A stretch of 64,000 nt of DNA. Source: Escherichia coli. GTDB taxonomy: Bacteria > Pseudomonadota > Gammaproteobacteria > Enterobacterales > Enterobacteriaceae. Shown here piece by piece: positions 58,338-58,383 of this stretch. The translations under genes and the position numbers were made by a program. Location: the NCBI RefSeq assembly GCF_016903815.1, contig NZ_CP069973.1. One strand, given 5' to 3'. The first letter of the stretch is position 1; each line of letters opens with the position of its first letter. The notes beneath the pieces were generated by a model that saw only the letters and a list, made by a program, of their open reading frames with translations, was not told the origin of the DNA and did no database searches.

Positions 58338-58383
58338 ATCCCTTAATTGTGCATGCTGTTGCGACTATGCACAATTAAGGGAT
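58338..58383. promoter_or_regulatory. perfect 17-bp inverted repeat (12-bp spacer) in the panE/yajQ divergent intergenic region; possible operator or REP-like unit
   Basis: ATCCCTTAATTGTGCAT-N12-ATGCACAATTAAGGGAT. Confidence 0.5.

What the first reader, a model, noticed from the sequence alone, without database searches (positions are those of the whole stretch)
58338..58383. Perfect 17-bp inverted repeat in the panE/yajQ divergent promoter region
ATCCCTTAATTGTGCAT-N12-ATGCACAATTAAGGGAT is an unusually long perfect palindrome sitting between two divergently transcribed genes, about 45 bp upstream of panE and about 80 bp upstream of yajQ. It could be a dimeric transcription-factor operator or a structured element affecting both promoters. 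It does not look like a canonical REP unit.
Basis: seen in the sequence. Interest (0 to 1): 0.35.

Follow-up and report, generated by a model that had tools for sequence, protein, structure and literature searches.

The report
Known RNase III hairpin doubling as promoters
The perfect palindrome between E. coli panE and yajQ is real but already explained: transcribed in a long yajQ leader it forms an RNA hairpin that RNase III is published to cut, and its two arms also seem to carry mirror-image promoters for panE and yajQ.

Summary
The inverted repeat is real. It is 18 bp per arm rather than 17 (58337-58354 / 58367-58384, 12-nt spacer), the best palindrome in the window, and single-copy in 5,424 of 5,426 E. 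coli genomes.

It is already explained. Gordon, Cameron and Pfleger (mBio 2017) list an RNase III site at NC_000913.3 444573, which is window 58352, inside the left arm. They confirmed it in vitro with 5' RACE. They report that cleavage in the yajQ 5' UTR stabilises yajQ mRNA.

Published start-site maps show how the repeat gets transcribed. A promoter inside panE, on the opposite strand (TSS 58195), makes a 267-nt yajQ leader that contains the hairpin.

The same maps put a yajQ start at 58382 and the panE start at about 58338, at the two outer ends of the palindrome. Each arm would then serve as the -35 element for one gene and the -10 element for the other. This dual-promoter reading is my inference.

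I found no evidence for a transcription-factor operator. The half-site does match the csgD MlrA box, but the spacing is wrong.

The segment occurs only in Escherichia and, in degenerate form, Citrobacter. It is absent from Salmonella and Enterobacter.

Verdict: ordinary, already known, low interest.

The parts
58337..58354 (.). Left arm of the inverted repeat (TATCCCTTAATTGTGCAT). It forms the 5' half of the RNA stem in the long yajQ leader.
   Evidence: The published RNase III coverage-ratio peak at NC_000913.3 444573 equals window 58352 and lies here.
58355..58366 (.). 12-nt spacer (GCTGTTGCGACT), the loop of the hairpin. Two extra G-C pairs are predicted inside it.
58367..58384 (.). Right arm of the inverted repeat (ATGCACAATTAAGGGATA), the 3' half of the RNA stem.
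58183..58195 (+). Promoter 'P3' inside the panE coding region, on the opposite strand: -10 TACAAT at 58183-58188 and TSS G58195. It makes a 267-nt yajQ leader that carries the hairpin.
   Evidence: TSS 443640 (U00096.2) in Kim et al. 2012 TSS-seq and in Cappable-seq. The A-11/T-7 form of the -10 element is found only in E. coli and E. albertii.
58347..58382 (+). yajQ promoter 'P2' inside the palindrome: -35 TTGTGC at 58347-58352, 17-nt spacer, -10 CACAAT at 58370-58375, TSS A58382.
   Evidence: Cappable-seq TSS 443827 (U00096.2) equals window 58382. The relaxed hexamer scan predicts a TSS at 58381-58383. The promoter assignment is my inference.
58338..58374 (-). panE promoter, the mirror image of P2: -35 TTGTGC (reverse complement of 58369-58374), 17-nt spacer, -10 CACAAT (reverse complement of 58346-58351), TSS at about 58338.
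   Evidence: The divergent-overlap end is 443783 (Conway) or 443780 (Lybecker seed), as tabulated in PMC7373196 Table S1. These equal window 58338 and 58335. p19-captured duplexes stop at 58332. The scan predicts a TSS at 58338-58340.
58386..58400 (+). Small 6-bp hairpin (GTCCTGgtgCAGGAC) followed by a U-rich run. It would sit at the 5' end of P2 transcripts and of RNase III-processed yajQ mRNA. It contains TGGTGCA, an NtrC-like half-site.
   Evidence: Gordon et al. propose a stabilising 5' hairpin. An NtrC genomic-SELEX peak lies at about window 58401.
58424..58437 (+). Main conserved yajQ promoter 'P1': -10 TATTAT at 58424-58429 and TSS 58437. It lies downstream of the palindrome, so its mRNA lacks the hairpin.
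   Evidence: 5' RACE TSS at -25. Cappable-seq TSS 443882. GGTATTATGC is invariant in 18 Enterobacteriaceae.
58283..58301 (+). Anti-Shine-Dalgarno segment of the long leader. It is the reverse complement of the panE ribosome-binding site and start codon.
   Evidence: Predicted to pair with 58448-58466 at probability 0.84-0.98 for most pairs; duplex energy -19.3 kcal/mol. In silico only.
58448..58466 (+). yajQ Shine-Dalgarno and start codon. Predicted to be sequestered in the P3 leader and about half open in shorter RNAs.
   Evidence: Mean unpaired probability is 0.15 in the P3 RNA, against 0.47-0.52 for RNAs starting at 58371, 58382 or 58437.
57383..58294 (-). panE coding sequence (2-dehydropantoate 2-reductase).
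58462..58953 (+). yajQ coding sequence (nucleotide-binding protein YajQ).

Best explanation
The palindrome is a dual-use element of the E. coli panE/yajQ control region.

(1) RNA level, shown by others. A promoter inside panE, on the opposite strand (TSS 58195), produces a yajQ mRNA with a 267-nt leader. In that leader the repeat folds into a roughly 20-bp stem-loop. RNase III cuts this stem. The processed yajQ mRNA is about twice as stable as the uncut RNA in an rnc mutant.

(2) How cleavage helps, my inference. In the uncut leader, the reverse complement of the panE ribosome-binding site (58283-58301) is predicted to pair with the yajQ ribosome-binding site and start codon (58448-58466). The hairpin lies between these two segments. 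Cutting it separates the blocking segment from the coding part. That would free translation and so protect the mRNA, as described for adhE. The small hairpin at 58386-58400, left near the new 5' end, may add protection, as the authors proposed.

(3) DNA level, inferred from published start sites. The arms carry the -35 (TTGTGC) and -10 (CACAAT) hexamers of two mirror-image promoters. One starts yajQ transcripts at 58382. The other starts panE transcripts at about 58338. panE mRNA therefore does not contain the hairpin. It does overlap the long yajQ leader over 58196-58338, and that sense/antisense duplex is a second RNase III substrate.
For: Shown by published experiments:
- RNase III site 444573 'Intergenic (panE-yajQ)', with 96 reads in the rnc mutant against 2-3 in wild type. 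Cleavage was confirmed in vitro and by 5' RACE. The yajQ half-life is about 6 min in wild type against about 3 min in the rnc mutant (PMC5371410). Reads were mapped to NC_000913.3.
- The coordinate offset of +386221 puts that site at window 58352, in the left arm.
- Altuvia et al. re-detected 9 of the 10 transcripts that Gordon et al. found cleaved.
- TSS 58195 appears in two independent maps. TSS 58437 appears in two maps. TSS 58382 appears in Cappable-seq.
- The 5' end of panE is at 443780-443783 (U00096.2), which is window 58335-58338. dsRNA immunoprecipitation region MS-115 covers 443638-443836, which is 58193-58391 and includes the repeat. p19-captured RNase III duplexes cover 58196-58332.

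Computed here:
- The stem has base-pair probability of about 1.0 in the 286-nt leader. Fold z-scores are -7.7 and -8.6 for the two strands.
- The anti-SD/SD helix has probability 0.84-0.98 for most pairs.
- The hexamer scan predicts TSS windows 58381-58383 (+) and 58338-58340 (-), matching the mapped ends.
- The element is single-copy.
- The P3 -10 element and the perfect repeat co-occur only in Escherichia.
Against: - The RNA-seq of Gordon et al. was not strand-specific. Their in vitro templates were artificial, starting at about 58155 or inside yajQ. The strand cut in vivo is therefore inferred from start-site maps, not shown.
- I could not see their Fig. 4, so the exact cut positions are unknown to me. 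444573 is a coverage-ratio peak, not a mapped cut.
- The promoter hexamers inside the repeat are weak (7 of 12), and the default promoter scan found none.
- The panE start comes from second-hand tables. I had no primary minus-strand TSS list, because the Cappable-seq file is cut before the minus-strand entries.
- The anti-SD model is purely a folding prediction. Any leader running antisense across a ribosome-binding site will contain a CCUCC-like run.
- The hairpin is absent from Salmonella and Enterobacter and is degenerate in Citrobacter. It is a lineage-specific addition, not a core requirement for panE or yajQ expression.
Confidence: 0.8

Rival explanations
1. The palindrome exists mainly for DNA-level reasons. 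It is a symmetric divergent promoter, in which RNA polymerase binds in one of two orientations to make either panE or yajQ-P2 transcripts. The RNase III-sensitive hairpin in the long leader would be an incidental by-product of that symmetry. This rival is not exclusive of the best explanation; it differs on which function is selected.
For: - Start sites sit at both outer ends of the repeat, 58382 (+) and about 58338 (-), at the canonical 7-8 nt from CACAAT hexamers.
- The parts shared between Escherichia and Citrobacter (ATTGT...ACAAT plus the outer GGGAT/ATCCC) are the promoter-relevant parts. The inner stem is not conserved.
- Pseudo-symmetric bidirectional promoters are described as common in E. 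coli (abstracts of PMC12825309 and PMC10268837).
Against: - A promoter does not need 18 of 18 perfect symmetry. The symmetry covers positions that carry little promoter information.
- The hexamers are weak (7 of 12).
- RNase III dependence of RNA levels at this exact spot and of yajQ mRNA stability is measured.
- The TSS spacing is about 44 bp. From my own knowledge, the shared -10 class of bidirectional promoters has about 18 bp.
Confidence: 0.3
2. The repeat is the operator of a dimeric transcription factor that co-regulates the two divergent promoters. One candidate is a MerR-family protein such as MlrA or its paralogue BluR, whose csgD site looks similar. The architecture would resemble the bio operator, which overlaps bioA and bioBFCD.
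For: - It is a perfect palindrome overlapping both core promoters.
- The half-site cores AATTGTGCA (58345-58353) and TGCACAATT (58368-58376) are identical to the right half of the MlrA site upstream of csgD in MG1655, which reads AAAAGTTGTACA-N12-TGCACAATTTT.
- The published MlrA consensus is AAAATTGTACA(12N)TGTACAATTTT.
Against: - The spacing between the 9-mers is 14 bp here against 12 bp at csgD, about 70 degrees of helical twist.
- No paper in the library links MlrA, or any other factor, to panE or yajQ as a target. The sequence appears in no paper text.
- The only binding datum in the spacer is a weak NtrC genomic-SELEX peak (41%) centred near 58401, next to a TGGTGCA half-site outside the repeat.
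- The MlrA resemblance was found post hoc, from memory of many motifs.
Confidence: 0.08
3. In vivo, the RNase III effect at this locus comes from the intermolecular duplex between panE mRNA and the antisense long yajQ leader, not from the intramolecular hairpin.
For: - p19-captured 21-22-nt duplexes and the dsRNA immunoprecipitation region cover the 142-nt overlap at 58196-58338.
- Gordon et al. state that they could not test antisense involvement because their data were unstranded.
Against: - Single in vitro transcripts were cut by purified RNase III with no partner RNA, and the authors placed the cuts in a predicted double-stranded stretch of each transcript.
- The in vivo coverage-ratio peak (58352) lies inside the repeat, beyond the last captured duplex (58332).
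- The dsRNA immunoprecipitation region extends to 58391, which is past the overlap and across the hairpin.
- Both substrates probably coexist.
Confidence: 0.15
4. The repeat is a member or remnant of a dispersed repeat or mobile-element family (REP/BIME, ERIC, MITE), or a DNA cruciform-forming element with no specific gene function.
For: - The roughly 45-50-bp segment behaves as an insertion relative to Salmonella, Enterobacter and others, whose spacers are about 125 bp against 167-174 bp.
- K. pneumoniae has a different insert at the same place.
- One E. coli strain has an IS1203 inserted in the left arm.
Against: - There is one locus per genome in 5,424 E. coli genomes.
- There are no phage hits. 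The only 'plasmid' hits are chromosome-sized records (>1.2 Mb) carrying the same locus.
- Only 3 of 120 metagenome stretches with the 15-mer carry the repeat. The two I read (L099, L128) are in the panE-yajQ context; the rest are isolated single matches.
- There is no Rfam match.
- The arms are 33% G+C, unlike REP.
- A 12-nt spacer disfavours cruciform extrusion (established knowledge, not tested).
Confidence: 0.03

Closest known systems
RNase III cleavage site 'Intergenic (panE-yajQ)', position 444573 of NC_000913.3 (Gordon, Cameron and Pfleger, mBio 2017, PMC5371410)
   Same: It is the same object. The reported position maps to window 58352 in the left arm. The authors describe complementary hairpins that can form on either strand, cleavage in vitro, and stabilisation of yajQ mRNA.
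   Different: The paper does not connect the hairpin with the start-site maps. It does not point out that panE mRNA starts at the edge of the repeat and so lacks it, or that the arms match promoter hexamers. Its RNA-seq was unstranded.
adhE 5' UTR processing by RNase III, in which cleavage removes occlusion of the ribosome-binding site (as summarised in PMC5371410 and PMC9032294)
   Same: RNase III acts positively on the mRNA. A long leader is predicted to mask the Shine-Dalgarno sequence, and cleavage uncouples the masking segment.
   Different: For yajQ the masking helix is only a folding prediction. The published proposal is instead a protective 5' hairpin. The review PMC9032294 lists the yajQ mechanism as not elucidated.
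Divergent 5'-overlapping transcripts as RNase III substrates (Lybecker 2014 dsRNA locus MS-115; Conway 2014 overlapping operons; Huang et al. 2020 p19 cluster S-46)
   Same: This locus is listed in all three data sets as a divergent 5' overlap between panE and the long yajQ transcript.
   Different: Those data concern the intermolecular duplex at 58196-58338. The palindrome adds an intramolecular substrate immediately next to it.
Bidirectional (pseudo-symmetric) bacterial promoters (Warman et al. 2021; PMC12825309, PMC10268837)
   Same: DNA symmetry gives divergent initiation from a single RNA-polymerase-sized site. Binding in one orientation should exclude the other.
   Different: From my own knowledge, the described class shares the -10 region, with starts about 18 bp apart. 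Here each arm would be the -35 for one promoter and the -10 for the other, with starts about 44 bp apart. The conserved GGTATTATGC at 58422-58431 looks more like the classical type.
MlrA box upstream of csgD, AAAATTGTACA(12N)TGTACAATTTT
   Same: The 9-nt half-site TGCACAATT is identical to the csgD right half, and both sites are palindromic.
   Different: The spacer is 14 bp, not 12. The flanks are CCC/GGG instead of A/T runs. There is no binding evidence.
REP/BIME elements
   Same: Both are intergenic palindromes able to form RNA hairpins.
   Different: This element is single-copy, A+T-rich, perfect, and located at the 5' ends of genes between divergent promoters.

Membership tests
RNase III-processed mRNA stem-loop | Contiguous double-stranded RNA of about two helical turns (about 20-22 bp) | tested here: met
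   18 perfect pairs plus 2 G-C pairs across a small internal loop. Folding energy is -26.9 kcal/mol and stem pair probability is about 1.0 in the native leader. This is slightly under the 22 bp quoted in PMC5371410.
RNase III-processed mRNA stem-loop | The element is transcribed on the relevant strand in vivo | tested here: met
   A plus-strand TSS at 58195, 142 nt upstream of the repeat, appears in two published maps. An unstranded coverage of 96 reads across the repeat is seen in the rnc mutant.
RNase III-processed mRNA stem-loop | RNase III-dependent cleavage in vivo and by purified enzyme | not testable with these tools
   Published: the rnc/WT read ratios are 48 and 32; the site was cut in vitro and confirmed by 5' RACE. 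I could only check that the coordinate falls inside the repeat.
RNase III-processed mRNA stem-loop | Staggered cuts leaving 2-nt 3' overhangs, and no antideterminant pairs in the proximal and distal boxes | not testable with these tools
   The exact cut sites are in Fig. 4 of PMC5371410, and figures are not held. The authors report no striking consensus match for most of their sites.
Sigma-70 promoter (two mirror copies inside the repeat) | -35 and -10 hexamers with 16-18 bp spacing | tested here: inconclusive
   TTGTGC-17-CACAAT on both strands scores 7 of 12, with A at position 2 and T at position 6 of the -10 element. This is below the threshold of the standard scan, which found no promoter-like site.
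Sigma-70 promoter (two mirror copies inside the repeat) | Mapped primary 5' end 6-8 nt downstream of the -10 element | tested here: met
   Plus strand: Cappable-seq TSS at 58382, 7 nt after CACAAT. Minus strand: the panE transcript end is tabulated at window 58335-58338, against the predicted 58338-58340. The minus-strand value is second-hand.
REP/BIME repeat family | Many dispersed copies per genome | tested here: not met
   One locus per genome in 5,424 genomes. The '2 places' are the two strands of the same palindrome.
REP/BIME repeat family | G+C-rich imperfect palindrome, usually downstream of genes | tested here: not met
   The arms are 33% G+C and perfect, and they lie between two divergent 5' ends.
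Intrinsic (Rho-independent) terminator | G+C-rich stem directly followed by a U run | tested here: not met
   The repeat is followed by CGTCCTGG. The scan flags only the separate small hairpin at 58386-58400.
MlrA (MerR-family) operator | Palindromic half-sites AAAATTGTACA / TGTACAATTTT | tested here: inconclusive
   The core 9-mer is identical to the real csgD right half-site. It matches 8 of 11 positions of the idealised consensus, and the flanks differ.
MlrA (MerR-family) operator | 12-bp spacing between half-sites | tested here: not met
   14 bp (58354-58367) separate AATTGTGCA and TGCACAATT, against 12 bp at csgD.
MlrA (MerR-family) operator | Demonstrated binding or regulation | not testable with these tools
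   No paper in the library reports it.
NtrC binding site | TGCACCA-N3-TGGTGCA dyad (consensus recalled from my own knowledge) | tested here: not met
   There is only a single TGGTGCA at 58390-58396, outside the repeat. A weak genomic-SELEX peak (41%) lies near 58401.
Any Rfam RNA family | Covariance-model match | tested here: not met
   Only two chance-level snoRNA matches, with E of about 5.

The most novel reading that the evidence does not exclude
The 48-bp palindrome may be a triple-coded element. First, it would hold mirror-image panE and yajQ-P2 promoters, in which each arm is the -35 for one gene and the -10 for the other. Second, when read through from an upstream antisense promoter, it forms an RNase III switch. 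Third, it would be the operator of a MerR-type dimer such as MlrA or BluR, since its half-site is identical to the csgD MlrA box. That third role would tie yajQ, a member of a c-di-GMP-binding protein family, and pantothenate synthesis to the curli/c-di-GMP circuit in Escherichia only.
Probability: 0.06. Interest if true: 0.55.

Novelty: already known. Interest (0 to 1): 0.2.

Why it matters
The finding adds little new biology. The hairpin is a published RNase III site, and the locus already appears in three dsRNA or overlapping-transcript catalogues.

Its value is as a worked example of one short sequence read at two levels. As DNA, its arms seem to be the core promoter of panE and of a secondary yajQ promoter. 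As RNA, in a longer yajQ leader, it is a processing site that raises yajQ mRNA stability.

If the mirror-promoter and anti-Shine-Dalgarno inferences hold, the locus would be a compact, lineage-specific (Escherichia) case in which a roughly 50-bp insertion created both a new promoter pair and a post-transcriptional control point. It would also give a concrete mechanism for the positive RNase III effect on yajQ, which a 2022 paper on E. coli RNase III (PMC9032294) lists among positive regulations whose mechanism has not been elucidated.

Tried and rejected
- **Rfam scan of 58000-58800:** only chance-level matches.
- **Default promoter scan:** found no promoter-like site, not even the experimentally mapped P1. 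I therefore used a relaxed hexamer scan.
- **Repeat-family idea:** rejected. There is one locus per E. coli genome, nothing in phages, and the only 'plasmid' hits are chromosome-sized records (>1.2 Mb).
- **Metagenome scan with the 15-mer:** 117 of 120 stretches were isolated single matches without the repeat. Only 3 had the full repeat; the two I read (L099, L128) are at the panE-yajQ locus. The scan told me little beyond that.
- **Genome-wide half-site search:** not possible. Within the window there is only one 3-mismatch match, at 13686-13702.
- **Covariation test of the stem:** not possible. E. coli and E. albertii are identical, Citrobacter copies are degenerate with no compensatory changes, and other genera lack the segment.
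- **Primary minus-strand TSS lists:** not obtained. The stored Cappable-seq GTF is cut before the minus-strand entries. Kim 2012 and Mendoza-Vargas 2009 have no panE entry. Conway 2014 and Altuvia 2018 supplements are not held. Thomason 2015 and Lybecker 2014 are not held.
- **Full-text search for the arm sequence:** no paper.
- **NtrC as binder of the repeat:** rejected. The SELEX peak and the half-site lie to the right of it.
- **Intrinsic terminator:** rejected, because no U run follows the repeat.
- **E. coli variant alleles of the repeat:** 73 genomes are below 99% identity over 58 nt, but the search output could not list them. The one I retrieved is an IS insertion.
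Full report
**Observation**

The window around the finding is E. coli. thiI, yajL, panE, yajQ and yajR lie in the K-12 order. panE occupies 57383-58294 on the minus strand and yajQ occupies 58462-58953 on the plus strand. Window coordinates equal NC_000913.3 minus 386221, or U00096.2 minus 385445. I checked the second offset against two independently mapped yajQ start sites.

The reported 17-mer occurs at 58338-58354 (+) and 58367-58383 (-) with no mismatch. The pairing extends one base further on each side, so the arms are 18 nt (58337-58354 / 58367-58384) with a 12-nt spacer.

It is the strongest inverted repeat in the 64-kb window. The next perfect one has 13-nt arms. 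A rough calculation gives about 3.5e-5 such repeats expected by chance.

**Copy number and distribution**

The 168-bp spacer and the 58-nt repeat region each match one locus per genome in 5,424 of 5,426 complete E. coli genomes. The 'two places' reported for the short query are the two strands of the same palindrome.

- 5,351 genomes are at least 99% identical over the 58 nt.
- Phage genomes have no match.
- The five 'plasmid' hits are chromosome-sized records (>1.2 Mb) carrying the same locus.
- An exact 15-mer scan of metagenome contigs returned 120 stretches. Only 3 carry the full repeat; the two I read (L099, L128) are at the panE-yajQ locus. The rest are isolated single matches.

The repeat is therefore not a member of a dispersed family.

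**Conservation across genera** (80 loci with yajQ, plus Salmonella and Klebsiella records)

- The perfect repeat is present in E. albertii, where it is identical.
- Four Citrobacter species keep a degenerate version: 10-13-nt outer arms with mismatches or a bulge, a 21-nt loop, and a fold of only about -15 kcal/mol.
- The whole 45-50-bp segment is missing from Salmonella, Enterobacter, Leclercia, Lelliottia, Kosakonia and others. Their spacers are about 125-140 bp, against 167-174 bp here.
- K. pneumoniae has an unrelated insert at the same place.

The element is thus a lineage-restricted addition to an otherwise conserved spacer. I found no compensatory changes, so covariation cannot be used for or against an RNA structure.

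**What is already published**

Gordon, Cameron and Pfleger (mBio 2017, PMC5371410) compared RNA-seq coverage of wild type and an rnc deletion mutant.

- They list 'Intergenic (panE-yajQ)' at 444573, with 96 reads in the mutant against 2-3 in wild type. Reads were mapped to NC_000913.3.
- That position is window 58352, inside the left arm.
- Purified RNase III cut in vitro transcripts of both strands, and 5' RACE placed the cuts in a predicted double-stranded stretch of each transcript.
[quoted passage not shown] They add that, because the hairpins are complementary, similar structures could form on the panE strand.

A later paper on E. coli RNase III (PMC9032294) lists yajQ among positive RNase III targets whose mechanism is not elucidated. 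Altuvia et al. re-detected 9 of Gordon's 10 cleaved transcripts in vivo, but I could not see whether this one is among them.

**Which RNA contains the hairpin**

The Gordon RNA-seq was unstranded, and their templates were artificial. I therefore looked for start-site maps.

| Start site | Window position | Evidence | Contains the hairpin? |
|---|---|---|---|
| yajQ P1 | 58437 | Cappable-seq score 63.7; 5' RACE at -25; -10 TATTAT within the invariant GGTATTATGC | No (downstream of the repeat) |
| yajQ P2 | 58382 | Cappable-seq score 43.2 | No (starts at the last 3 nt of the right arm) |
| yajQ P3 | 58195 | Cappable-seq score 35.9; Kim et al. 2012, 267-nt 5' UTR | Yes |
| panE | 58335-58338 | Conway and Lybecker values tabulated in PMC7373196 | No (starts at the edge of the left arm) |

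P3 lies inside panE, on the opposite strand. Its transcript is the one that carries the repeat, at leader positions 143-190.

For the minus strand, Table S1 of Huang et al. 2020 (PMC7373196) records three items for this locus:

- Conway et al.'s divergent operon overlap, 443641-443783.
- Lybecker et al.'s dsRNA locus MS-115, coordinates 443638-443836 with seed 443638-443780.
- Their own p19-captured RNase III duplexes, from 443641 to 443777.

In window coordinates, the panE transcript therefore starts at about 58335-58338, at the outer edge of the left arm. The immunoprecipitated dsRNA extends to 58391, across the hairpin. The sense/antisense duplexes stop at 58332. So panE mRNA does not contain the hairpin, but it overlaps the long yajQ leader for about 142 nt.

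**The arms as promoters (inference)**

Two start sites lie mirror-symmetrically at the ends of a perfect palindrome, so I looked at the hexamers.

- On the plus strand, TTGTGC (58347-58352), a 17-nt spacer and CACAAT (58370-58375) precede the 58382 start by the canonical 7 nt.
- The reverse complement gives the identical pair for the minus strand, with a predicted start at 58338-58340.
- The match to consensus is weak (7 of 12), and the standard scan found no promoter-like site.
- These are nonetheless among only ten relaxed candidates in 340 bp, and both coincide with mapped ends.
- The parts of the repeat that Citrobacter retains (ATTGT...ACAAT and the outer GGGAT/ATCCC) are the promoter-relevant parts.

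I therefore consider it likely (about 0.6) that the repeat is the panE core promoter together with its mirror image, a secondary yajQ promoter. Each arm would serve as the -35 for one gene and the -10 for the other.

This differs from the described symmetric bidirectional promoters, whose starts are about 18 bp apart (my own knowledge; the abstracts give only the general concept). The conserved GGTATTATGC around P1 looks more like that classical type.

**How cleavage could stabilise yajQ mRNA (inference)**

Folding the 58195-58480 leader keeps the repeat as a stem with pair probability of about 1.0.

The fold also predicts a long-range helix between 58283-58301 and 58448-58466. The first segment is the reverse complement of the panE ribosome-binding site and start codon. 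The second is the yajQ ribosome-binding site and start codon. Pair probabilities are 0.84-0.98 for most pairs, and the duplex energy is -19.3 kcal/mol.

The mean unpaired probability of the yajQ initiation region is 0.15 in this RNA. It is 0.47-0.52 in RNAs that start at 58371, 58382 or 58437.

The hairpin lies between the two strands of that helix. An RNase III cut there would physically separate the masking segment from the message, as in adhE. More translation would then account for the longer half-life.

The authors' own suggestion is a protective hairpin at the new 5' end. It fits the 6-bp stem at 58386-58400 and is not exclusive of my model. Both are untested.

It is consistent with a lineage-specific circuit that the P3 -10 element with the critical A-11 and T-7 (TACAAT) occurs only in E. 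coli and E. albertii. These are the same species that have the perfect repeat.

**Operator hypothesis**

I found no binding data for the repeat. A genomic-SELEX study lists a weak NtrC peak (41%) in the panE/yajQ spacer at 443846, which is about window 58401. That lies next to a TGGTGCA half-site at 58390-58396, to the right of the repeat.

From memory, the arm core resembled the MlrA box, so I checked.

- The published consensus is AAAATTGTACA(12N)TGTACAATTTT.
- The real MG1655 csgD site is AAAAGTTGTACA-N12-TGCACAATTTT.
- The 9-mer TGCACAATT is identical to the repeat's core.
- The two 9-mers here are 14 bp apart, not 12, and the flanks differ.
- No paper links MlrA to these genes.

I keep this as a low-probability lead (under 0.1).

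**Verdict**

The feature is an already published RNase III-processed stem-loop, at a locus catalogued three times as a divergent dsRNA-forming overlap.

This analysis adds three points, all inferred from public start-site data and folding:

- The hairpin belongs to the long P3 yajQ leader and not to panE mRNA.
- The arms probably double as mirror-image panE and yajQ-P2 promoters.
- An anti-Shine-Dalgarno model offers a mechanism for the positive RNase III effect.

None of this makes the element a new kind of system. Novelty: already known. Interest: low.

Noticed in passing
window 58386-58400 (+), tail to 58412: A small 6-bp hairpin, GTCCTGgtgCAGGAC, followed by TGTTGGTTATTT. It is the only terminator-like hit in the spacer. 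It lies between the palindrome and the main yajQ promoter and contains an NtrC-like half-site, TGGTGCA. A published NtrC genomic-SELEX peak (41%) maps to about 58401.
   Followed up: partly
window 58416-58440; L008, L014, L016, L085 upstream of yajQ: The main yajQ -10 region, GGTATTATGC, is invariant in 18 Enterobacteriaceae. In several genera it is flanked by its own 6-8-bp inverted repeat (GCGTTGCAggtattaTGCAACGC), which is degenerate in E. coli. On the minus strand the same bases read CATAAT. This may be a classical symmetric bidirectional promoter or an operator, and could be the ancestral panE promoter in genera that lack the palindrome.
   Followed up: partly
window 58283-58301 and 58448-58466 (+ RNA): The reverse complement of the panE ribosome-binding site and start codon is predicted to pair with the yajQ ribosome-binding site and start codon in the 267-nt leader (most pairs 0.84-0.98). 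This would make the long transcript poorly translatable unless it is processed.
   Followed up: partly
window 58183-58195 (+), inside panE codons 34-38: The antisense promoter P3 has -10 TACAAT only in E. coli and E. albertii. Salmonella, Citrobacter, Enterobacter and others have TGCAAT, TGCAGT or TACAGT at the same codons. The long yajQ leader is therefore probably specific to Escherichia.
   Followed up: partly
L084 (E. coli 13TMH22, NZ_CP019256.1), junction at about window 58342/58343: An IS3-family IS1203 element is inserted in the left arm of the palindrome in one clinical strain. It separates panE from its presumed promoter half.
   Followed up: no
hit H30, NZ_LT883142.1: One E. coli genome matches only the first 67% of the spacer (up to about window 58408) and has two places. 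This suggests a rearrangement or insertion just upstream of the main yajQ promoter.
   Followed up: no
L086 (K. pneumoniae) 240-330, compared with window 58325-58385: K. pneumoniae carries an unrelated insert of about 65 bp in the panE-yajQ spacer (191 bp against about 125 bp in Salmonella). It sits at roughly the position where Escherichia and Citrobacter have the palindromic segment, so this spot may be an insertion hot spot.
   Followed up: no
window 13686-13702 (-): This is the only other near-match to the half-site in the window, ATCCCGTTATTTTGCAT with 3 mismatches. It is probably chance, although shuffles give a mean of 0.09 matches per window.
   Followed up: no
L151 (metagenome contig JGI24707J26582_10021275) 1340-1470: A 63-bp tandem direct repeat, each unit containing ATGCACAATTAAGGGG, in an unrelated context. 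It shares the 15-mer with the arm, presumably by coincidence.
   Followed up: no
window 58184, 58296 and 58405, compared with MG1655 sequences quoted in papers: The window differs from K-12 MG1655 at several spacer or leader positions: A not G at 58184, C not G at 58296, and T not C at 58405. The source strain is therefore not MG1655, but the palindrome itself is identical.
   Followed up: no
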